64,000 nt of DNA from a virus (taxonomy: Duplodnaviria; Heunggongvirae; Uroviricota; Caudoviricetes), in IMG/VR virus record IMGVR_UViG_3300020577_013140, positions 84,381-148,380 of that record. The stretch is one strand, 5' to 3'. A program made the position numbers and the translations under genes. The notes beneath the pieces were generated by a model, which was not told the DNA's origin, made no database searches, and saw only the letters and a list, made by a program, of their open reading frames with translations. Position 1 is the stretch's first letter. The number at the start of each line of letters is the position of its first letter. Below, piece after piece: positions 20,444 to 60,291 of the stretch.

Positions 20444-20671
20444 TTATCCTCGCAGGTAGTCGATGAGTGAACGGACGATAAAGTACAACACGAAAATTAC
20501 AACCAGTAAACAAAGCAAAGGTGCAAGGGCGATGAGCGCCACAAACAGCAGTGCTGCCACAGAAAAGAAGAACGAGCCGAAGAACCAAAGGATGACTGCA
20601 ACAGCCACAAAAGCAATGCAGTTCCATAAAAAGTCAGAAGCGTATTGGGACCAACGATCTTTGATGGGCAT
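20444..20671 (-). CDS. small membrane protein
   Basis: almost entirely hydrophobic 75-aa ORF. Confidence 0.7.
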   Translation of the reverse strand: MPIKDRWSQYASDFLWNCIAFVAVAVILWFFGSFFFSVAALLFVALIALAPLLCLLVVIFVLYFIVRSLIDYLRG

Positions 20672-20725
20672 GAATAGGGGGACCCCCTTGGGCGGAGGTT
20701 TTCGAAATTTTGACAGGGGTTGTTC

Positions 20726-40658: not shown

Positions 40659-41096
40659 CTACGGGTCGCGATCGCCCTTTTCAGGCGTGACGACAGTCAC
40701 CGCCGTAATTCGATAGGGCGTATCACCGGCCATCGGTGTCTGCCTGCCCTCTTCGTAGCTCAGCCGCACCAATTGGCCGCGGTCCATGGCCCGCTGCAAG
40801 TCTTCGATGACCTTGGTGTTGGTCTTGTCGACAGTGAAGGCCCAGACGTTTCCGACCACACCTCCTTCAGCCAGCGCACGTGAACCTCCCATGACCAGCT
40901 CTCCTTCCCAGCTCTTGTTCACGACGCCCTTGTACGAGAGTTTGGTGACGTGCCCGACCCGGTTGCCTGTTGAGTAGCCGGAAAGGAGATGACACCCTCC
41001 TCCAAGAAGCGCAGCCAGGATAAATAAGATAATGACGACGACGACCAGTTCCACCATGGTGAACCCGGCGCTAAGCTTGTAATTCGTTGTTTTCAC
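40659..41096 (-). CDS. prepilin-type N-terminal cleavage/methylation motif protein
   Basis: a GTG start at 41096 gives MKTTNYKLSAG|FTMVELVVVVIILFILAALL; the start is inferred, not certain. Confidence 0.55.
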   Translation of the reverse strand: MKTTNYKLSAGFTMVELVVVVIILFILAALLGGGCHLLSGYSTGNRVGHVTKLSYKGVVNKSWEGELVMGGSRALAEGGVVGNVWAFTVDKTNTKVIEDLQRAMDRGQLVRLSYEEGRQTPMAGDTPYRITAVTVVTPEKGDRDP

Positions 41097-42489
41097 GGAT
41101 GAGTTGTTCTGCAAGGTTAAGTCCGTCCTCTTTTGTCTCAAAGGTTCCGGACAATTGTTTCTCCATCAGCTGCGCCAACAGTGCGCCCATTTTTGCGCCT
41201 GTTGGATACTGGAATCGAGCGATCAAGTCCCTGCCAAGGACAAGAGGTTTAGGCGCCTCGTGCTGTACTCCAGCCTTTGCCGCCTTTTTCTCGAACCAGG
41301 CTATCATTTCTTCATCAGGAGGTTGCGTCGGTCCCCGGCCTCCTTGGTCAAACCGCAGCAGCTTGGTGAGCTGCTTGATTGGAACCCTTTGAGCCAACCG
41401 GCGGAAGGCCGCCAACTCAGGGTCACTGTGGTAAAAAGACGACGGAGCCATGTGGTTGCGGCAGAGCGCCAACACTTGCTCGATAATCTTCGTCTCATTT
41501 GTAAGCCGCATCAGGAACCTTTCGGCCGGCCCTGTGTAGAACTCGTGACCATGATTGGTCCAATGCGGTGTAGGCCTTCTTTTTGTCGGGCCAAACACTG
41601 CCGTAGCAGGCTTGCCCATGTCGTGGCATAAGGCGGCCAGTCCAAGAACGAGTTTCTCTTCGTCGTCCTCAAAGGTGCCGCGAGTAAACGCCTCGACCAC
41701 CAAAGCAGTGTGCTCGAACACGTCGCCCTCAGGATGCCACTCCGGCGTCTGTTCGCTACCGATCATTGCGAACAACTCAGGGTAGTAGTTTTCCAGCCAC
41801 CCGATGTCATTGAGGAACCCCAGGGCCTTGCGGATGTGCTTTCCTTTCAAGAGGAGCTTTTTCCACTCTTCCCAGATACGCTCTCGTGCCAGATGCTTCT
41901 GTGACAGTCCGCGGCAAATACGGATACACTCTTCGGACGGTGTCAGGTCGAAACGCGCGATCATCTGCATGCCCCGTAGGACACGCAGGGGATCCTCTGC
42001 AAATCGTGACGATACCGGGTGAAGGCGTTTTTCCAGAAGATCCTTTTTGCCTCCCCATGGGTCGAACCACATGGAGGTGATTGGATCGAAATATAAGGCG
42101 TTGACCGTGAAATCGCGGCGGGATGCCGCCTCGACCATAGTCATGAACGGATCCAGTTCCACCTGGAAACTGGTGTGAGTATCCCCGGTCTTTATTTCAC
42201 GACGGGGGATCGAAATGTCGATGGGGTAACCGTGTATCTTGATAACACCAAAGGAACGCCCCACCACGTCAATACGCCATTCTTGCTGAAGAAGTTTCAC
42301 CAGGTGTTCGGCGCTGAGACCAAACACTTCGATGTCGACGTCCTTCAACTCAAACGGCTCGCCTGCGAGTTGGGTCAAGTACCGGTCCCGTGCGGCACCA
42401 CCAACAATGTATGCTGCACCATCCAGGTCTTCGACTTTTTGACAGATACGCAGCACAACATCCATCAATTCATCAGTTGAGACACTCAT
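41071..42489 (-). CDS. cca: CCA-adding tRNA nucleotidyltransferase with HD domain
   Basis: YIVGGAARD...KDVDIE, RRDFTVNAL, EDPLRVLRG, PEWHPEGDVFEHT, LCHDMGK. Confidence 0.92.
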   Translation of the reverse strand: MSVSTDELMDVVLRICQKVEDLDGAAYIVGGAARDRYLTQLAGEPFELKDVDIEVFGLSAEHLVKLLQQEWRIDVVGRSFGVIKIHGYPIDISIPRREIKTGDTHTSFQVELDPFMTMVEAASRRDFTVNALYFDPITSMWFDPWGGKKDLLEKRLHPVSSRFAEDPLRVLRGMQMIARFDLTPSEECIRICRGLSQKHLARERIWEEWKKLLLKGKHIRKALGFLNDIGWLENYYPELFAMIGSEQTPEWHPEGDVFEHTALVVEAFTRGTFEDDEEKLVLGLAALCHDMGKPATAVFGPTKRRPTPHWTNHGHEFYTGPAERFLMRLTNETKIIEQVLALCRNHMAPSSFYHSDPELAAFRRLAQRVPIKQLTKLLRFDQGGRGPTQPPDEEMIAWFEKKAAKAGVQHEAPKPLVLGRDLIARFQYPTGAKMGALLAQLMEKQLSGTFETKEDGLNLAEQLIRENNELQA

Positions 42490-48389: not shown

Positions 48390-48424
48390 GGGGAGGAACT
48401 CCGGCAATCGCCGGAATCCCTCCC
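48390..48424 (-). terminator. probable terminator downstream of the TROVE gene
   Basis: GGGAGG..TCCGG/CCGGA..CCTCCC hairpin followed by a U-rich tract on the minus strand. Confidence 0.6.
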
Positions 48425-48443: not shown

Positions 48444-50114
48444 CTATTCGCCGTCTGCTTCGTTGAGCGCCTGGAAATCCACCTGGGTGACCTCGTGAAC
48501 GAGGGCCGAAGGATTCTTACGGAGCTCAGTCAGCAGGGCGAATATCTTGTCTGAGAAACCAGACAGAACAGCCACGGAGTCTTCCGGGAACATCATCGTT
48601 TTAGACCCCGTGAGGTCAAACATGACGATGAAAGGAAGAACCTTGTGGCGCTGTTCATACTGGCGTCTTGCGGCAGTCGGCGCGCCGGCTTGCGAGTCCC
48701 AGCTGTCACCGAACTGCCAACCTTCACCGTCCGACAGGATGATGATGTTGTCGTATCCAGTGGTGGCAGCTTCGAATATGGAATGGAAGTTGGTGGAGCC
48801 TCCGTTCCAGTTCTGACGTATGTCATTCAACGTCGCGAACAGCGACATATTCGTGCGGATCGGCTTGTAGGTAGCTCGGTTCGCGAATGACATGAAGTGA
48901 GCACCGGGTTGGCTCTTGAGCACGATTGCCGCGAACAGCGACCCGATGTTTGCAGGAGAGCGGTCAGTCTCGACACCCCCCATTGATGCAGACTCATCCA
49001 GCGCAACCAGGGTACGCCCTGGGAGTTTCGGAATGTTTCGGCACGACAAGGCGACGGCTTCCTCAATTGCGTCAGCGACCACCCGCGAATGCACGAACCC
49101 AGAGGCAAGGACTTCCTTGTAGGCACGTACAAACTGGAATGGAAGGATCAACGAATTCTCCACCGCCTTGGGGTTGGTGATGAACTCACAGACCTGAGGG
49201 ATTACTTCAGGTGCCTGCTCCAGGATGTTCCGGAGGTTGCGCAGGGTGGCGAAGTAACCGAGTTTCCGCTCCGCCACCAGCTCACGCCAAACCTGGGCCT
49301 TCTTCGCCGGGTCGGAGCCTGCAGCCGAAAGGCGTGCTTCCCACGTGTCGACGTTCTTCAACTCGCCACGTACGAACTGTCGGAAAGCCTCAGCGTTCTC
49401 GGGCGTCGGCTTCGGGTGTACGAGGTTGAACACGTCAACCAAGGAAATCGCCTGACCGGTCTTCTGGTACTTGGCCAGCCGATAGCCATCGAGCTTGGAC
49501 AGCGCGGCGGCGATACCCTTCTTCAAGGGATATGGTAGCGTCACTGGGACCTTCTTGCCTCGCTTGCCTCCGGGCTTACGGATGGTCTTGCCTCCGCCGA
49601 AGAACGCGAAGTAGGCCGCCACAATTTCCAGGGCGTCATCCGGGCGGTAAATCACGGACTCGACAAACTGCTTGACCCAGGTCTCGCCCTTGCCCTTCGT
49701 GTAGTAGCAGACCAAGGCCGCCACAGCGTGGGAAATGGACCGAAGGCCGAGTACGCGGCGCGCCCACACAGCGGCCTGAGCAGCGAAGCGAGGGCTGTGC
49801 TTGACGAGGGTCTTCAACCGCTCAAGCGTCTGGGCTTCGCTCTCATAGAACTTCCCTTTAGGCTCATGCAGCAGGGTGGTGAAGATGAGCGACAACAGCT
49901 CGAAAGCTGGGCTCTTCCGGAAAGCCTTTCCACCCGCTGCGTTGACCGTGTCGGTCTGTGCGTGGTGATGAGGCATGACGGTGGTAGCGGCCGGTGGCGA
50001 TGGCGGGATCTGACCGACCAGCGAGGTCGCCGAACGCGACCGTGCTCGTTGCGACTGCGAAGAGAGCGCAGGCTGGGTTGGAGTTGTGTTGAGTGAGGAG
50101 CTGAACTTAGCCAT
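48444..50114 (-). CDS. rsr: Ro60/Rsr TROVE-domain RNA-binding protein with C-terminal vWA domain
   Basis: DTVNAAGGKAF N-terminal motif, TWEARLS, LGYFATLRNLRN, ILPFQFVRAY, VALDESASM, TNF..IF, IILSDGEGW. Confidence 0.92.
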   Translation of the reverse strand: MAKFSSSLNTTPTQPALSSQSQRARSRSATSLVGQIPPSPPAATTVMPHHHAQTDTVNAAGGKAFRKSPAFELLSLIFTTLLHEPKGKFYESEAQTLERLKTLVKHSPRFAAQAAVWARRVLGLRSISHAVAALVCYYTKGKGETWVKQFVESVIYRPDDALEIVAAYFAFFGGGKTIRKPGGKRGKKVPVTLPYPLKKGIAAALSKLDGYRLAKYQKTGQAISLVDVFNLVHPKPTPENAEAFRQFVRGELKNVDTWEARLSAAGSDPAKKAQVWRELVAERKLGYFATLRNLRNILEQAPEVIPQVCEFITNPKAVENSLILPFQFVRAYKEVLASGFVHSRVVADAIEEAVALSCRNIPKLPGRTLVALDESASMGGVETDRSPANIGSLFAAIVLKSQPGAHFMSFANRATYKPIRTNMSLFATLNDIRQNWNGGSTNFHSIFEAATTGYDNIIILSDGEGWQFGDSWDSQAGAPTAARRQYEQRHKVLPFIVMFDLTGSKTMMFPEDSVAVLSGFSDKIFALLTELRKNPSALVHEVTQVDFQALNEADGE

Positions 50115-50144
50115 ATTGGGTTATGTCAGTGATTGAGGTTGAAT

Positions 50145-50196
50145 AGGGTCGACGGGGTATTTCGTAGATAGAAGTATCCGTCAGTGTTACATCCCT
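50145..50196 (-). ncRNA. Y-RNA-like unit 1 (minimal)
   Basis: AGGG-AUGUAAC...GACGG/CCGUC...GACCCU; closest unit to the Ro60 start; lacks an exact GUUCAUC. Confidence 0.5.
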
Positions 50197-50366
50197 CTAA
50201 AAAAATGCATCGGGCACCGCCAACGCTCTAGGTCGTTGTCGTTAAACGCCGTTTCCACGGTGGCCAGTTCGAGGATCTTGAACGACTGCAGTAAGGTCCT
50301 CCGCGACCGATGCTCCTGCCTCAATGGGTCTCGAGAGCGAGACCCAGAGTTTGCAGGTAAATGAAA

Positions 50367-50442
50367 CCGGGCGAAAAATAGACTTGTGAATTTTTGTTTC
50401 AGCGATAATGCAGAAGATGAATCACAAACCGTTACGTCCCGG
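50367..50442 (-). ncRNA. Y-RNA-like unit 2 (short cargo)
   Basis: CCGGG-ACGUAAC-GGUUUGUGA-UUCAUC...UUCACAAGUC-UAUUUUUC-G-CCCGG. Confidence 0.7.
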
Positions 50443-50459
50443 AAAATGGAAAAGGGGAA

Positions 50460-50527
50460 TGCGGAGAAAAGGAGTACCAGCGGGGGTTATCGTGGAATGA
50501 TGAACCGCTGGAAAAGTTACTTCCGCA
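50460..50527 (-). ncRNA. Y-RNA-like unit 3 (short cargo)
   Basis: UGCGG-AAGUAAC...CCAGCGG-UUCAUC...CCGCUGG...UUUUC-U-CCGCA. Confidence 0.7.
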
Positions 50528-50535
50528 AAGTGATA

Positions 50536-50600
50536 GGGGAGAAATGATGTTTGTGGGTTTTTTCTTAAACGCAAGATGAACCACAGACTGTTACTTCCCC
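50536..50600 (-). ncRNA. Y-RNA-like unit 4 (short cargo)
   Basis: GGGG-AAGUAAC-AGUCUGUGG-UUCAUC...CCCACAAAC...UUUC-U-CCCC. Confidence 0.7.
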
Positions 50601-50610
50601 AAAAGGAAAA

Positions 50611-50742
50611 GAGAGTGAAAAATTACCAGGAAGTTGTTTTCTCTACCATTGAGCTACGGCGGCATTTGAGCCGCCGGTGGGAATCGAACCCACGACCTTG
50701 TATTTTGCGGTACATGATGAACTCCTGATGGTTACATCTCTC
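50611..50742 (-). ncRNA. YrlA-like Y RNA unit 5 with a circularly permuted tRNA domain
   Basis: scaffold plus T arm GUGGG-UUCGAUU-CCCAC, acceptor CGGCGGC/GCCGCCG capped by a 6-nt loop, then D arm UAGCUCAAUGGUAGAG. Confidence 0.85.
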
Positions 50743-50765
50743 AAAATCGAAAAGTGTCTGGTTAA

Positions 50766-50825
50766 GGGCAAACATGGAAAAAGGAGACTGCAACAATCGG
50801 CTGCCTGTCTATTACATGTTTGCCC
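50766..50825 (-). ncRNA. Y-RNA-like unit 6 (variant, long terminal stem)
   Basis: GGGCAAACAUG-UAAU-AGAC...GUCU-CCUUUUUC-CAUGUUUGCCC; lacks GUUCAUC. Confidence 0.55.
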
Positions 50826-50981
50826 ACCTCGTCAGTGGAACCAGCACCACTATGAACACCCCTCACAGATGTTTGTCCGGAAGGTTTGATAGCGACTAAA
50901 CCGGGGCGCATTGTATCGGAATCGCTGCCCGTTCGAGTATCCGGTCTGTAGCCGGCGCCGAAGCGCTACAAGTCGCTAAAT

Positions 50982-51058
50982 TGGTAGCGGGGGCTGGATT
51001 TGAACCAGCGACCTCTTGGTTATGAGCCAAGCGAGCTACCAGGCTGCTCCACCCCGCA
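50982..51058 (-). tRNA. tRNA-Met(CAU), initiator-like, CCA encoded
   Basis: UGCGGGGUGGAGCAGCCUGGUAGCUCG...CUCAUAA...GGUUCAAAUCC...ACCA; 1:72 mismatch and A11-U24 pair. Confidence 0.93.
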
Positions 51059-51166
51059 ATCGAAAGAATGTTCCCGGCCATGGCCGGGTGAGATGGAGTC
51101 CGGCCCCATCGACTGGATGTTTCACGCCCGTCGCCTCCGGTTAAAGAGGTATCCAGTCAAAAAGAA

Positions 51167-51305
51167 TCCAAGGCGAATAAATTGTACGAGCTACATTTTG
51201 AACAGCTGCTCTTCCACTGAGCTATAGATGCCAAAGACACCTAGGTGGATTCGAACCACCGACCAGCTGTGGGATTGATGGACGTCGTACGGTTACGTCC
51301 TTGGA
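51167..51305 (-). ncRNA. YrlA-like Y RNA unit 7 with a circularly permuted tRNA domain
   Basis: UCCAAGG-ACGUAAC...GUCCAUC; ACAGCU/AGCUGU stem at the anticodon-stem position, T arm GGUGG-UUCGAAU-CCACC, capped acceptor, D arm UAGCUCAGUGGAAGAGC. Confidence 0.85.
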
Positions 51306-51312
51306 AAGGGAA

Positions 51313-51446
51313 TGAGGAGAAAAAGCGAAAGACATTTGTTAGGTGCTCTAACCGCTGAGCTATCCTGGCGTCTAATGCCAGGAGTGGGATTCGAACCCAC
51401 GACCACCCGCTTTACATGCGATGAACGTCTTTCAATTACTTCCTCA
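51313..51446 (-). ncRNA. YrlA-like Y RNA unit 8 with a circularly permuted tRNA domain
   Basis: UGAGG-AAGUAAU...GUUCAUC; T arm GUGGG-UUCGAAU-CCCAC; UCCUGGC/GCCAGGA capped acceptor; D arm UAGCUCAGCGGUUAGAGC. Confidence 0.85.
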
Positions 51447-51454
51447 AAAGTGAA

Positions 51455-51586
51455 TGGAGAGAAAAAGTGAACCTCATTTTTTAGTGTGCTATCCGTTACA
51501 CCACCAGCCCGTCAAATGGGCCAGCCAGGAATTGAACCTGGACCACTCGTTCCATATACGATGAACGAGATTCTATTACTTCTCCA
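51455..51586 (-). ncRNA. YrlA-like Y RNA unit 9 with a circularly permuted tRNA domain
   Basis: UGGAG-AAGUAAU...GUUCAUC; T arm CCAGG-UUCAAUU-CCUGG; CUGGCCC/GGGCUGG capped acceptor; D arm UGGUGUAACGGAUAGCAC. Confidence 0.85.
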
Positions 51587-51605
51587 AAAGTCAAAGAGCT
51601 TGATT

Positions 51606-51750
51606 GCTCTCTTGGCATTCCAGGATGCGTTCGTTGTAGTGTTCAGCTCGTGTACTGGTAAAGGTCCTTTTTCTCGGAGCTTACCTGTCATTTGCAGAAC
51701 TCTTAGTCTGTAGAAACAGATGAACGACCTAAAAAGAATGCCAAGGGGGC
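51606..51750 (-). ncRNA. structured RNA related to the Y-RNA-like units (variant)
   Basis: ~15-bp terminal stem GCCCCCUUGGCAUUC/GAAUGCCAAGAGAGC and a GUUCAUC motif, but no GUAAY. Confidence 0.45.
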
Positions 51751-52130
51751 AATCAACGCCTCCTATTATGGAGGCTTGCTGAAAATTGTCAACCCCCTAT
51801 TTAAGGAGGCGATAGGAGTGTTGCCGGTTCCAAAGGCCACTATTCGTGACTCATCGAAACCGAGCAAAAAACGCCAAGCCAGTGAAGCAAGGCACGTCAT
51901 TTGTTCACCTCGCACTACCAAGGTGTTTTTGTCGACGCCAACAACACTCCATTTGGGGGGCGAGGTGTTAACCAGGCCGCCTGCCACCAGCTGTATTTGA
52001 CCGATGAGGTTAGGCATACAGCAGCCGACTGTCAGATGCACTGACAGATTGAGCACTTGCCCCTTAGTCCGCGGCGTACCGCAGGTCAGAGTTTCGCGAT
52101 CCTTATTTCATGATCAGGGTGCTCAAAAAT

Positions 52131-52281
52131 TGGTGTGCGAGGCGGGACTTGAACCCGCATAGCCCTCACGAACAGGTTGGTGCCTGCTTGAGTCGGTATG
52201 GGCATCCCCGGATACCACTCCGGAGCGTATCTCACCTACAATCCCTTTGGTTATTTGTTCCCTCGGGGTGACGGCTCGCAC
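52131..52281 (-). ncRNA. 151-nt tRNA-like RNA with canonical acceptor, T arm and CCA but an atypical enlarged core
   Basis: GUGCGAG/CUCGCAC-ACCA acceptor, GCGGG-UUCAAGU-CCCGC T arm and a long variable-arm-like hairpin; no recognisable D or anticodon arm. Confidence 0.5.
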
Positions 52282-58299: not shown

Positions 58300-60291
58300 T
58301 CAAGCCTTGGCTGCTTTTGCGTCGCGGATGGGATCACGAAGCGTTGTGATCCGGTCGACCACCAGTGTGTCGTTCTTCAACGCCATCAGCCGGGTGACCA
58401 AGGCGTCGTAACCGACACCCATTTCAGCCCGGCCATCAACGATGCAAACGTATTGGCTGGTGCCCGTCTTCCACACCTTGAAGGACTCCTTCTCAACCGT
58501 GTAGGAAGCACCACTTGCCCCAACGACCTCATAAGCGTCCAAACCTTGATGCTTGGTCTCTTTCGCTCCGACTTCCTTGACAACCGTAGCAAGCAACTGT
58601 GCAGACTTCTTCTCGGCCTCAGAGCGTGCCTCCAACAGCCAGTCCACCAACGGGGCCAACTCTTCCAAGGTCACAAGCGGCACATCCTTGTCATCCACGG
58701 CGTGCAGTCGAATAATCCGCTTGAGGTGGTACTTGCACCATTCCGTATTCCGACGTTGAAGTCCGGACTCGTCATTTACCCAGGAGTTGTTTGTCTTCCC
58801 GTTGAGCTTTGCCAACTCATCGAGGAACCCGACGAAACGGCGCAACGGAACCTTGGTCGTCTTTTCCTTGTTGAGCCACAGGTAGTAATGCCCCTTTTCG
58901 CAAATGAAGAAGATCTTGGGGTGCTTGGCTGTGACCGGGCGGTTATAGTCCGCGTAGCGGTCAAACGTAAAGATCTTCAGCGGAACGCCGTTTGACAGGG
59001 CGTCGTGTACACGCAGCGAGGCCTTCTCGATTTGACGGACAAATCGATTGTAGTCCTCGGCATTAGTGAAGCAGGTGGCCCGGCGAAGAACGCGATGCAG
59101 CTCATCGTTATTGATGTAATGCCCGTTTACTTTTCGCCGAGTGTTCGTCGTGCTCAGTGACAGGACAATGGGAATATCGTTGATACGGAAAGCCCATTGC
59201 TTGGCTTCATTAAATCCTTTGGAAGTCGCAGACAGCGGAACTTGACTTGACTCATGGACGATGGAAGCGATAAAGGCATCCGCCAGCTGGTAGATGTCGA
59301 ACACTCCATTAGGATCCAGTTTCGTCATGATGACGTCCGTCAGCCCCTCAGCCTCGATGCTGATGGTCTCGTAAGTCGCCCGGTTGGCGCTCAGTTTGAT
59401 GTTGTTAAGGACGATCTCCTTAATCTCACCTCGCTGGAACTTGGTGACGATGACGTTTTGTGCGTTCGTCTCAAAGTCTGCGCGGATGGCAGCCTTCAAC
59501 TTGGCATATCGCTGTGCGTGGGCCTCCGGAAGTGCACGTTCAGCCAGCATGAGAATCCTCTGTAGCTCGCCGGAATTTGCAGCATTCAGAAATACTCCGT
59601 CACGCAGCAACAGCTTGACTTGCTCCGGAATCACCGCGAACAACGCTGCCAACGAATACACGTTAAGGCTAAGCTGGTTCGAGATAAAGATGGCGGGAAC
59701 TTCACCCGTCTTGGAGCAAAAGAACACGACGTGTCCTTTATCCATGTAGTTGTAGAGTGGACTGTCTGTGCTCACAGCGAAATACGAGGGGCTGGTATGC
59801 CCAGCATCACGGACAAAGCCGTCACCTGTCGTCGTCAGTGCATCGCCACTCAATGTACGATATGACTTCCCTTGACCCTGGGATTCAACAGGCGTACCCG
59901 TAATAAACATCGGTACAACTACCCCAAACCCGTGACTCGAGAACCCACGAACGGTCTCGAAGAAATACTTAACCGGGCTTTGAAGGAGAGAGCTGTGACC
60001 GCGTGTAACTTGAGCAAAAGTCTTCTGCTTTTCAAGCGTCGTGAAAAATGATGAGTTCTGCCCAGCCGGTGTGAGTGTTCGATCCGACACATACCACTGG
60101 CTAGTTTCGCAAATCATTGCGAGTGCCGGAACGTTGTCCACGTTGCTAAACTTAGGGAGAAAATGCCACTCATTGGAGGCACCAACCCAGAAGCTTTCAG
60201 GTTCAATCGCCACCGTGATACCGGGGAGCTGTCGTTGGATTTCAGCGAATTGGCGAACTGCGTGCGAAATTGTCTTTAGAGGAATAGCCAT
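58300..60291 (-). CDS. 663-aa protein of unknown function inside the Ubl operon
   Basis: long ORF tightly coupled to the JAB gene (TGATATG); no family recognised. Confidence 0.85.
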   Translation of the reverse strand: MAIPLKTISHAVRQFAEIQRQLPGITVAIEPESFWVGASNEWHFLPKFSNVDNVPALAMICETSQWYVSDRTLTPAGQNSSFFTTLEKQKTFAQVTRGHSSLLQSPVKYFFETVRGFSSHGFGVVVPMFITGTPVESQGQGKSYRTLSGDALTTTGDGFVRDAGHTSPSYFAVSTDSPLYNYMDKGHVVFFCSKTGEVPAIFISNQLSLNVYSLAALFAVIPEQVKLLLRDGVFLNAANSGELQRILMLAERALPEAHAQRYAKLKAAIRADFETNAQNVIVTKFQRGEIKEIVLNNIKLSANRATYETISIEAEGLTDVIMTKLDPNGVFDIYQLADAFIASIVHESSQVPLSATSKGFNEAKQWAFRINDIPIVLSLSTTNTRRKVNGHYINNDELHRVLRRATCFTNAEDYNRFVRQIEKASLRVHDALSNGVPLKIFTFDRYADYNRPVTAKHPKIFFICEKGHYYLWLNKEKTTKVPLRRFVGFLDELAKLNGKTNNSWVNDESGLQRRNTEWCKYHLKRIIRLHAVDDKDVPLVTLEELAPLVDWLLEARSEAEKKSAQLLATVVKEVGAKETKHQGLDAYEVVGASGASYTVEKESFKVWKTGTSQYVCIVDGRAEMGVGYDALVTRLMALKNDTLVVDRITTLRDPIRDAKAAKA

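What the first reader, a model, noticed from the sequence alone, without database searches (positions are those of the whole stretch)
50611..51586. Four circularly permuted tRNA mimics, some retaining anticodon-like loops (possible nuclease decoys)
Seen: units 5, 7, 8 and 9 read T arm, then acceptor 3' strand, then a 5-7-nt loop, then acceptor 5' strand, then D arm. This is a tRNA permuted near the anticodon arm with a capped acceptor and no CCA. The four appear to derive from different tRNAs (acceptors GCCGCCG, GCAUCUA, GCCAGGA, GGGCUGG). Just 5' of the T arm, three keep a small hairpin at the anticodon position: UGUA-CCGCAAAA-UACA (GCA), CGC-AUGUAAA-GCG (GUA; U33/A37, 12 nt from the T stem as in a real tRNA) and CGU-AUAUGGA-ACG. 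Short unit 3 has AUC-AUUCCAC-GAU. Established: YrlA RNAs mimic tRNA with D, T and capped acceptor arms, and host anticodon nucleases cut specific anticodon loops. Inference: the units may be uncharged decoys or sensors for tRNA-targeting defences. The anticodon reading rests on 3-4-bp stems and is tentative.
Basis: partly seen in the sequence, partly recalled or inferred. Interest (0 to 1): 0.75.

Follow-up and report, generated by a model that had tools for sequence, protein, structure and literature searches.

The report
Phage Y RNAs shaped like permuted tRNAs
The four "back-to-front tRNAs" are real. They are YrlA-type Y RNAs, the small RNA partners of the Ro60/Rsr protein whose gene lies just downstream in this large phage, so they belong to a known kind of RNA in a divergent phage form.

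Summary
Observation confirmed, on the minus strand. Units 5, 7, 8 and 9 each read T arm, acceptor 3' strand, 5-7-nt cap, acceptor 5' strand, D arm. Each unit is closed by a two-part stem that covaries across 25 homologues.

They lie 0.5-1.5 kb upstream of a 556-aa Ro60/Rsr gene on the same strand. That gene has a TROVE and a vWA domain, and its best solved relative is the Thermus phage phiLo Ro60. Rfam YrlA matches three units below threshold. A model built here finds 1-5 such units upstream of Ro60 genes in about 45 phage and bacterial loci, including two cultured phages.

The "anticodon" hairpin is the published V stem-loop of YrlA. In units 8 and 9, and in 31 of 60 homologous units, it sits in exact tRNA register. 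U33, R37 and A38 are conserved, and the stem covaries. The triplets are not conserved between orthologous arrays (unit 8: GUA, UCU, AUU), so no specific anticodon is supported. Unit 7 has no such hairpin, and unit 5 has an off-register one.

The nuclease-decoy idea is untested and already in print (Hughes 2020). Origin from different tRNAs is not supported.

This scan has noted phage Y-like RNA arrays beside Ro60-like genes many times on other DNA.

Verdict: new variant of a known kind, moderate interest.

The parts
51453..51590 (-). Unit 9, a YrlA-like Y RNA. Outer helix 5' strand 51587-51579; second helix 51574-51567 with 51475-51469; anticodon-arm-like hairpin 51562-51546 (loop AUAUGGA); T arm 51541-51525; capped acceptor 51524-51504 (cap AUUUGAC); D arm 51501-51486; outer helix 3' strand 51463-51455.
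   Evidence: Model R1 113.6 bits; fold; coordinates. No Rfam YrlA hit.
51311..51450 (-). Unit 8, a YrlA-like Y RNA. Outer helix 5' strand 51447-51439; second helix 51434-51427 with 51333-51326; anticodon-arm-like hairpin 51422-51406 (loop AUGUAAA); T arm 51400-51384; capped acceptor 51383-51363 (cap AUUAGAC); D arm 51360-51345; outer helix 3' strand 51321-51313.
   Evidence: Rfam YrlA 35.9 bits, E = 1.5e-5; R1 133 bits; fold z = -3.4; coordinates.
51168..51307 (-). Unit 7, a YrlA-like Y RNA without a separate hairpin. A 5-bp anticodon-stem equivalent pairs 51270-51266 with 51206-51202. T arm 51260-51244; capped acceptor 51243-51225; D arm 51222-51208; outer helix 51304-51296 with 51175-51168.
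   Evidence: Rfam YrlA 37.6 bits, E = 5e-6; R1 106.7 bits; coordinates.
50609..50746 (-). Unit 5, a YrlA-like Y RNA. Hairpin 50714-50699 (4-bp stem, 8-nt loop, out of tRNA register); T arm 50693-50677; capped acceptor 50676-50657; D arm 50654-50640; outer helix 50744-50735 with 50617-50609.
   Evidence: Rfam YrlA 30.3 bits; R1 93 bits; fold z = -3.1; coordinates.
48444..50114 (-). rsr, a Ro60 orthologue of 556 aa and the presumed protein partner of the units.
   Evidence: Pfam TROVE 1.3e-18 plus a weak vWA_Ro60 match (1e-4, below its cut-off); phrog_850 1e-42; PDB 9KOP/9L5Y (Thermus phage Ro60) 1e-22, 2NVO, 1YVP.
50125..50605 (-). Four shorter scaffolds (units 4, 3, 2, 1) with the same two-part stem and GUUCAUC junction but no tRNA-like domain. 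Unit 1 lies in the rsr 5' leader.
   Evidence: Folds; weak R1 hits at 50605-50533 and 50531-50458; orthologues in L166 and L210 with covarying helices.
50982..51058 (-). A true tRNA-Met(CAU), initiator-like, with encoded CCA, embedded between units 7 and 5.
   Evidence: ARAGORN and Rfam tRNA, 63.5 bits; kept in L210.
51765..51792 (-). Promoter-like site, TTGACA-16-CATAAT, upstream of units 9 to 1. A second candidate seen by eye is TTGTAG-18-TATAAT at 52658-52629.
   Evidence: Consensus scan, 11 of 12 matches; sequence. Consensus matches only.
48391..48424 (-). Terminator-like hairpin 20 nt after the rsr stop codon.
41071..42489 (-). tRNA nucleotidyltransferase (CCA-adding enzyme), same strand, 6 kb downstream of rsr. 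Context only.
   Evidence: Pfam PolyA_pol head 6.8e-15; phrog_2244 1.3e-59.

Best explanation
The four units are phage-encoded Y RNAs of the YrlA type.

They are probably transcribed with the neighbouring scaffolds and rsr from promoters upstream, then cut into RNAs of about 135-140 nt. In each RNA the 5' and 3' ends pair into a two-part bulged stem. The 5' strand of that stem carries a conserved handle (GNNGAAG-UAAY here, AGYRA across the family). This is the likely binding site for the Ro60/Rsr ring encoded just downstream.

The other end of the RNA is a circularly permuted tRNA opened between nucleotides 26 and 27. It has a T arm, a 7-bp acceptor stem closed by a small loop, and a D arm. 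In units 8 and 9 it also has a hairpin in the place and register of the anticodon arm. This hairpin is the 'V stem-loop' of the YrlA literature.

By analogy with studied Ro60-Y RNA particles, the RNA tethers or gates the phage Ro60. It presents a tRNA-shaped head to a tRNA-binding partner or to host PNPase.

Shown here: the anatomy, the covariation, the linkage to rsr, and the recurrence in other phages.

Inferred: transcription and processing, Rsr binding, the L-shaped fold, and the partner.
For: - Position: 0.5-1.5 kb upstream of a TROVE+vWA Ro60 gene on the same strand. This meets the Chen 2014 locus criterion (PMC4201824).
- Rfam YrlA is the best non-tRNA family for units 7, 8 and 5.
- Model R1 finds 1-5 like units directly upstream of Ro60 genes in most of 36 phage loci and many of 40 genome loci. 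These include Caulobacter phage CcrPW and Xanthomonas phage 10KY502B.
- The outer helix, second helix, T stem and D stem all covary: 92.5% of cells paired against 69% in shuffles, and 46% or fewer with the partners slid.
- tRNA tertiary positions are kept. U8 and A14 are present in 25 of 25 units. 15-48 is a Levitt pair (G-C or A-U) in 23 of 25 as aligned. Read with a 4-nt variable loop (register), unit 9 makes 24.
- The hairpin was not part of the model, yet it is 79% paired, with double changes at 3 of 5 pairs.
- 31 of 60 units have at least 4 closing pairs, a 7-nt loop, a 4-5-nt variable loop and then the T stem. Chance expectation is about 4% per unit by my estimate. Among 28 non-redundant loops, U33 occurs in 25, R37 in 28 and A38 in 24.
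- Established elsewhere: YrlA binds Rsr, carries psi55 and D, and folds as a tRNA L-shape (PMC4201824; 10.1101/312249). A phage Ro60 binds two upstream Y-like RNAs and host PNPase (PMC12135203).
Against: - Rfam scores (30-38 bits) are far below the YrlA gathering score of 69, and unit 9 is not hit at all.
- The published GNCGAAN0-1G motif is not strictly present.
- There is no direct evidence here for transcription, processing, Rsr binding or modification. RNA-library contigs cover the region but cannot show transcription.
- The function of YrlA's tRNA-like domain is unknown even in the model organisms.
Confidence: 0.8

Rival explanations
1. Decoy or sensor. The tRNA-shaped heads, including the anticodon-loop mimic, bind and titrate (or report on) host anticodon nucleases or other tRNA-targeting defences. 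This would protect the phage's 35 tRNAs. It could coexist with Ro60 binding.
For: - Across the family the loop keeps the U-turn signature (U33, R37, A38) while nucleotides 34-36 vary, with 12 different triplets in 28 loops.
- Loops differ between orthologous arrays whose stems are conserved, as an arms race would predict.
- The phage invests heavily in tRNA: 35 tRNA genes and a CCA-adding enzyme.
- Hughes et al. 2020 suggest that YrlA may competitively inhibit an anticodon nuclease, which does not cut it (PMC7790460).
Against: - Loop drift is equally what neutral evolution of an unconstrained loop predicts. Acceptor caps drift in the same way.
- U33 is lost in the L166 orthologue of unit 9 and the L210 orthologue of unit 8.
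- Unit 7 and about half of all homologous units have no such hairpin.
- Short scaffolds with no tRNA body carry similar small hairpins.
- No nuclease or defence gene is linked to the array.
Confidence: 0.15
2. Processed tRNA-like products. RNase P opens the 7-bp acceptor stem, the 3' end is trimmed and CCA is added, as in M. smegmatis YrlA. This gives a two-piece RNA with free acceptor ends. In the extreme form these are true permuted tRNA genes that mature into decoding tRNAs.
For: - All four units have 7-bp acceptor stems with 5-7-nt caps. [quoted passage not shown]
- A phage CCA-adding enzyme lies 6 kb away on the same strand.
- Wang 2018 raise the possibility of such processing.
Against: - In many homologues the acceptor is closed by GAAA or UUCG tetraloops or is shorter than 7 bp, so cleavage is not a feature of the family.
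- For decoding: the triplets are not conserved between orthologues; unit 9 reads AUG with A34; unit 7 has no anticodon loop; and a long stem protrudes at position 26/27.
- No bacterial enzyme is known that would excise that stem.
Confidence: 0.2
3. Artefact or relic: tandem tRNA genes misread across their junction, or decaying tRNA pseudogenes without function.
For: - Chen 2014 warn that dimeric tRNAs can score as YrlA.
- The array holds one true tRNA.
Against: - No D arm lies upstream of any T arm, and no T arm lies downstream of any D arm, as a tRNA pair would need.
- The acceptor strands are complementary and only 5-7 nt apart.
- ARAGORN finds no tRNA that overlaps the units.
- The enclosing stems covary over many phage lineages.
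Confidence: 0.02

Closest known systems
YrlA (Y RNA-like A; Rfam RF02553; Chen et al. 2014, PMC4201824; Wang et al. 2018, 10.1101/312249)
   Same: - Encoded upstream of rsr on the same strand.
- The ends pair into a long stem.
- Order of T arm, closed acceptor stem-loop, D arm, with tRNA tertiary nucleotides.
- An optional 'V' stem-loop 5' of the T arm.
- Several copies per locus are reported, and the family occurs in phages.
- It is described in print as a circularly permuted tRNA with a closed acceptor.
   Different: - Scores only 30-38 bits against the gathering score of 69.
- The handle is GNNGAAG-UAAY, not GNCGAAN0-1G.
- An extra conserved junction, GUUCAUC or UUACUUC, forms the 5' strand of a hairpin in exact anticodon-arm register. 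S. Typhimurium YrlA 'lacks the anticodon loop'.
- Four copies sit in one array, together with at least five scaffolds that carry other cargo.
Thermus phage phiLo Ro60 with Yrl1 and Yrl2 (PMC12135203; PDB 9KOP, 9L5Y)
   Same: - The closest solved relative of this Ro60 (E = 1e-22, nearly full length).
- Two Y-like RNAs lie upstream of the phage Ro60 gene.
- Stem-bulge-stem handle with a motif in the bulge.
- Binds the phage Ro60 and host PNPase in vitro.
   Different: - The paper does not describe a tRNA-like domain (the term is absent).
- Two RNAs rather than about ten.
- CGAA motif.
M. smegmatis YrlA (PMC4201824, section 8)
   Same: A 7-bp acceptor stem. [quoted passage not shown]
   Different: Processing is not shown here. 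The host and the handle sequence differ.
Circularly permuted tRNA genes of Cyanidioschyzon merolae and some archaea (Soma et al. 2007, as cited in 10.1101/312249)
   Same: The 3' part of the tRNA is encoded before the 5' part. The acceptor is first a closed loop, and the transcript ends pair.
   Different: - Those genes mature into decoding tRNAs through a splicing endonuclease and a ligase.
- Here the triplets are not conserved between orthologues.
- The stem carries a Ro60 handle.
- The break lies at 26/27.

Membership tests
YrlA / bacterial and phage Y RNA | Encoded within 4 kb of a Ro60/Rsr (TROVE) gene, on the same strand | tested here: met
   The units lie 495-1476 nt upstream of the rsr start codon at 50114, all on the minus strand.
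YrlA / bacterial and phage Y RNA | tRNA-like domain in the order T arm, closed acceptor stem-loop, D arm, with tRNA tertiary nucleotides | tested here: met
   U8 and A14 are present in 25 of 25 units, 15-48 is a Levitt pair (G-C or A-U) in 23 of 25 as aligned, and the T loop reads UUCRANN.
YrlA / bacterial and phage Y RNA | [quoted passage not shown] | tested here: met
   The two helices are 93% paired, and 8 of their 9 pairs show double changes.
YrlA / bacterial and phage Y RNA | GNCGAAN0-1G motif near the 5' end (putative Rsr site) | tested here: not met
   The units read GGAGAAG, GAGGAAG, AAGGACG and GAGAGAUG. These are related to the motif, but C3 is absent.
YrlA / bacterial and phage Y RNA | Score at or above the Rfam RF02553 gathering threshold of 69 bits | tested here: not met
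   37.6, 35.9 and 30.3 bits; unit 9 has no hit.
YrlA / bacterial and phage Y RNA | Bound by Rsr; carries psi55 and dihydrouridine | not testable with these tools
   Needs RNA immunoprecipitation and modification mapping.
Canonical tRNA gene | Contiguous cloverleaf found by ARAGORN or Rfam tRNA | tested here: not met
   Only the tRNA-Met at 51058-50982 is called. The de-permuted units are called as tRNAs. With the hairpin shuffled, units 9 and 8 are still called 60-85% of the time, unit 5 only 12%. So for units 8 and 9 the call shows nothing about the anticodon arm.
Permuted tRNA genes that mature into decoding tRNAs | Anticodon identity conserved between orthologues | tested here: not met
   Unit 8 reads GUA, UCU, AUU. 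Unit 9 reads AUG, GAG, UAG. The unit 5 loops differ in length.
Ro60/Rsr protein (partner gene) | TROVE HEAT-repeat ring plus vWA domain | tested here: met
   TROVE 67.9 bits; vWA_Ro60 matched weakly at 22.8 bits, below its 27.7-bit cut-off. Near full-length match to phage Ro60 structure 9KOP.

The most novel reading that the evidence does not exclude
The YrlA 'V stem-loop' is a functional anticodon-arm mimic. On this reading, these phage Y RNAs are complete circularly permuted tRNAs tethered to Ro60. Their fast-changing anticodon-like loops bait or titrate host tRNA-targeting enzymes, such as anticodon nucleases or modification enzymes. [quoted passage not shown]
Probability: 0.12. Interest if true: 0.8.

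Novelty: new variant of a known kind. Interest (0 to 1): 0.42.

Why it matters
Y RNAs and Ro60 are conserved from bacteria to humans, yet the role of the tRNA-like head of bacterial Y RNAs is still unknown. Three points here bear on that question.

- **Large arrays in phages.** Large phages carry whole arrays of such RNAs in front of their own Ro60 gene.
- **A near-complete tRNA.** In about half of the units, the element called the 'V stem-loop' has the register and loop signature of an anticodon arm. The mimic is then a nearly complete tRNA opened at position 26/27. This fits an origin from tandem tRNA genes better than the published sketch, in which the acceptor stem comes from a spacer.
- **Cultured systems.** Caulobacter phage CcrPW and Xanthomonas phage 10KY502B hold the same arrays, so binding, processing and counter-defence roles can be tested directly. 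In 10KY502B one unit is annotated as tRNA-Thr.

Tried and rejected
- **Handle pattern scan.** An exact pattern for the handle (GAAGTAAY, gap, GTTCATC) scanned over IMG/VR gave 117 single hits that look like chance. None was used.
- **blastn against phage records.** The rsr-plus-array region matched known phages only at the tRNA-Met.
- **ARAGORN on de-permuted units.** It calls units 9, 8 and 5 and 20 of 25 homologues as tRNAs. After shuffling the hairpin, units 9 and 8 were still called 60-85% of the time, unit 5 only 12%. I therefore dropped this as evidence for the anticodon arm of units 8 and 9.
- **Recent origin from the phage's own tRNAs.** Best identities are 70-78%, equal to the background between unrelated tRNAs.
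- **Metatranscriptome contigs.** Three wastewater runs of one study cover the whole region at 5-10x. One contig from a relative has much higher depth. Contigs cannot show transcription, RNA ends or strand, so no support is drawn from them.
- **Reviews not held.** PMC10870794 and PMC6047535 could not be read. The supplementary tables of Chen 2014 are not held either.
Full report
**What is there.** The window is part of a 182,660-bp IMG/VR virus record. Read on the minus strand, the stretch 51590-50609 holds four units of 138-140 nt. Each has a 5-bp T stem with a UUCRANN loop, then a 7-nt strand, a 5-7-nt loop, and the complementary 7-nt strand. Next come UA or UG and a D arm with A14 and G18G19. 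None of the units is called as a tRNA. ARAGORN and Rfam find only a true tRNA-Met at 51058-50982 between units 7 and 5.

**The enclosing scaffold.** Each tRNA-like core is closed by a two-part stem. An outer helix, for example GGAGA with UCUCC, ends in a conserved GAAG-UAAY on its 5' strand and faces a U-rich strand. After an internal loop there is a second, variable helix. A junction reading GUUCAUC follows. The same scaffold, without a tRNA core, forms the shorter units 4, 3, 2 and 1. Unit 1 lies in the leader of the next gene.

**The neighbouring gene.** That gene, at 50114-48444 on the minus strand, encodes a 556-aa Ro60/Rsr orthologue. Pfam gives TROVE at 1.3e-18 plus a weak vWA_Ro60 match below its cut-off, and PHROGs gives phrog_850 at 1e-42. 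Its best solved relative is the Ro60 of Thermus phage phiLo (PDB 9KOP/9L5Y, E = 1e-22, nearly full length), followed by D. radiodurans Rsr and vertebrate Ro60. A terminator-like hairpin follows its stop codon, and promoter-like sites lie upstream of the array. No ORF of 80 aa or more crosses the units.

**Family assignment.** In a permissive Rfam search, YrlA (RF02553) is the best non-tRNA family for units 7, 8 and 5. It scores 37.6, 35.9 and 30.3 bits (E = 5e-6 to 6e-4), far below the gathering score of 69. Unit 9 is not hit. Chen et al. 2014 define YrlA RNAs by four features (PMC4201824):
- a position within 4 kb of rsr on the same strand;
- a T arm, closed acceptor stem-loop and D arm;
- an optional 'V' stem-loop 5' of the T arm;
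- a GNCGAAN0-1G motif near the 5' end.

The first three hold here. The motif is only approximated (GGAGAAG, GAGGAAG). Wang et al. 2018 already describe YrlA as a circularly permuted tRNA with a closed acceptor (10.1101/312249).

**Recurrence and covariation.** Searching with the Ro60 protein gave 36 phage loci, 40 genome loci and one close metagenome contig. A covariance model built from six units (R1) finds 1-5 like units directly upstream of the Ro60 gene, on the same strand, in most of them. It also finds them in two cultured phages, Caulobacter phage CcrPW and Xanthomonas phage 10KY502B. In 10KY502B one unit is annotated as a 68-nt tRNA-Thr. In the 25-unit alignment A3, 92.5% of structure cells pair, against 69% after shuffling and 46% or fewer when partners are slid. 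Seventeen of 23 pairs show changes on both sides. U8 and A14 are invariant. The 15-48 Levitt pair is G-C or A-U in 23 of 25 units as aligned. Read with a 4-nt variable loop (the register found), unit 9 becomes a 24th.

**The 'anticodon' hairpin.** In units 8 and 9 the GUUCAUC junction supplies the 5' strand of a 4-bp stem that closes a 7-nt loop. A 4-5-nt segment (UGGUC, UGGU) and then the T stem follow. This is exactly the spacing of tRNA positions 27-48. Across homologues the common form is UUCGA, a 7-nt loop, UCGAG, AGGUC, then the T stem. Compensatory variants of the stem occur: UUCCA/UGGAG, UUGGA/UCCAG, UUCGG/CCGAG and UUCGC/GCGAG. This helix was not in the model, yet it is 79% paired, with double changes at 3 of 5 pairs.

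Of 60 units with a T arm, 31 have at least 4 consecutive closing pairs in this register. By my estimate, about 4% would do so by chance. In 28 non-redundant loops, U33 occurs 25 times, a purine at 37 occurs 28 times, and A38 occurs 24 times. Positions 34-36 carry 12 different triplets. So the hairpin is real, is under selection as a hairpin, and has an anticodon-loop signature. It is the V stem-loop of Chen 2014, drawn there as a variable arm. The permutation point is between positions 26 and 27. Unit 7 lacks it; a 5-bp stem joins its T side and D side instead, as in S. Typhimurium YrlA. Unit 5 has a 4-bp stem with an 8-nt loop, which is out of register.

L210 has a Ro60 83% identical to this one. 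L166 has one 62% identical and sits on a 226-kb scaffold labelled as a Dependentiae MAG. The units are 65-82% identical to those of L166, and the hairpin stems are kept in both arrays, but the loops are not:

| Unit | Window | L210 | L166 |
|---|---|---|---|
| 8 | AUGUAAA | CAUCUAA | CUAUUAA |
| 9 | AUAUGGA | UUGAGGA | UAUAGGA |
| 5 | CCGCAAAA | CUUGACA | CAUUAAAC |

Even U33 is lost twice. Acceptor caps drift in a similar way. The readings GUA, AUG and GCA are therefore not conserved identities.

ARAGORN does call the de-permuted units 9, 8 and 5 as tRNAs. With the hairpin shuffled, it still calls units 9 and 8 60-85% of the time, but unit 5 only 12%. For units 8 and 9 I give that result no weight.

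**Origin.** The de-permuted units are 70-78% identical to the best of the phage's 35 tRNAs. That equals the median best match between unrelated tRNAs in the same genome. Units 5, 7 and 8 share the D and T arm sequences typical of YrlA. They are best read as paralogues, not as captures of different tRNAs. Unit 9 has a distinct D arm, which its L166 and L210 orthologues share. The complementary acceptor strands and the retained anticodon-arm-like hairpin fit descent from a tandem pair of one tRNA gene. That is a variant of the dimeric-tRNA model cited by Wang 2018. This point is inference.

**How it probably works.** By analogy with studied systems, the terminal stem binds the phage Ro60, and the tRNA-shaped head is offered to a tRNA-binding factor or to host PNPase. 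In D. radiodurans, Y RNA tethers Rsr to PNPase. In Thermus phage phiLo, the Ro60 binds two upstream Y-like RNAs and host PNPase (PMC12135203). S. Typhimurium YrlA is modified by TruB and DusA and folds as a tRNA L-shape.

All four units have 7-bp acceptor stems. [quoted passage not shown] The phage encodes a CCA-adding enzyme 6 kb away. Processing of that kind is therefore plausible here, at about 0.2. It is not a family trait, because many homologues cap the acceptor with tetraloops.

The decoy idea cannot be tested with these tools. It has been proposed in print (PMC7790460). Fast-drifting loops with a conserved U-turn signature fit it, but they fit neutral drift equally well. I rate it at about 0.15.

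**Verdict.** The RNAs work like YrlA, but they fail two formal membership criteria: the Rfam score and the strict motif. I therefore file them as a divergent phage variant of a known kind. Earlier notes of this scan report similar phage Y-like RNA arrays beside Ro60-like genes on many other genomes. I treat those notes as leads, not as support.

Noticed in passing
window 52131-52281 (-): An RNA of about 150 nt with a 7-bp acceptor stem (GUGCGAG/CUCGCAC), a perfect T arm and encoded ACCA, but a non-canonical core. ARAGORN and Rfam do not call it. RNA-library contigs of three wastewater runs match a relative of it (7 differences) at depth 220-350, with unlike flanks.
   Followed up: partly
window 50888-50980 (-); L166 2017-2108: An element of about 93 nt directly after the tRNA-Met ACCA. 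It has 8-nt inverted ends (UAGCGACU...AGUCGCUA). It is about 96% identical between the window and L166, where neighbouring units are only 65-82% identical, but it is absent from the closer relative L210. It has no Rfam match and its fold z-score is -0.3. It may be a small mobile insertion.
   Followed up: partly
window 50982-51058 (-): The embedded tRNA-Met(CAU) looks initiator-like. It has a 1-72 mismatch, encoded CCA, and acceptor and D arms (by my recollection) close to E. coli tRNA-fMet. It is kept at the same place in L210.
   Followed up: partly
window 51600-51756 (-): A further scaffold closed by a 21-nt inverted repeat (90% complementary). It contains a GUUCAUC motif and lies just downstream of a TTGACA-16-CATAAT promoter-like site at 51792-51765.
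   Followed up: no
window 50125-50226 (-): A terminator-like hairpin with a U7 run (50226-50207) is followed at once by a Y-like scaffold (unit 1) in the rsr 5' leader. Both are conserved in L166 and L210. This may be attenuation or autoregulation of rsr by its own protein.
   Followed up: no
L208 2295-2362 (Xanthomonas phage 10KY502B, record 20624-20691): The annotated 68-nt 'tRNA-Thr' overlaps a YrlA-like unit 100 nt upstream of the Ro60-like gene. It is probably a mis-annotation, with the anticodon-like hairpin CUUGUAA read as an anticodon loop.
   Followed up: partly
L166 (RXKB01000001.1, 226-kb scaffold labelled Candidatus Dependentiae MAG): It carries a syntenic Ro60 gene plus Y RNA array (Ro60 62% identical). 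The scaffold may be a large phage genome binned as a bacterium.
   Followed up: no
genome C1 37396-61482 (outside the window): A cluster of 34 tRNA genes on one strand. One call has a 2-base 'anticodon' (60144-60218).
   Followed up: no
window 50790-50830 (-) and L210 590-650: Unit 6 is a small scaffold (GGGCAAACAUG...CAUGUUUGCCC) with GUAAU after the helix. Its helix shows compensatory changes in L210 (CAUG to CACG, with CGUG on the other strand).
   Followed up: no
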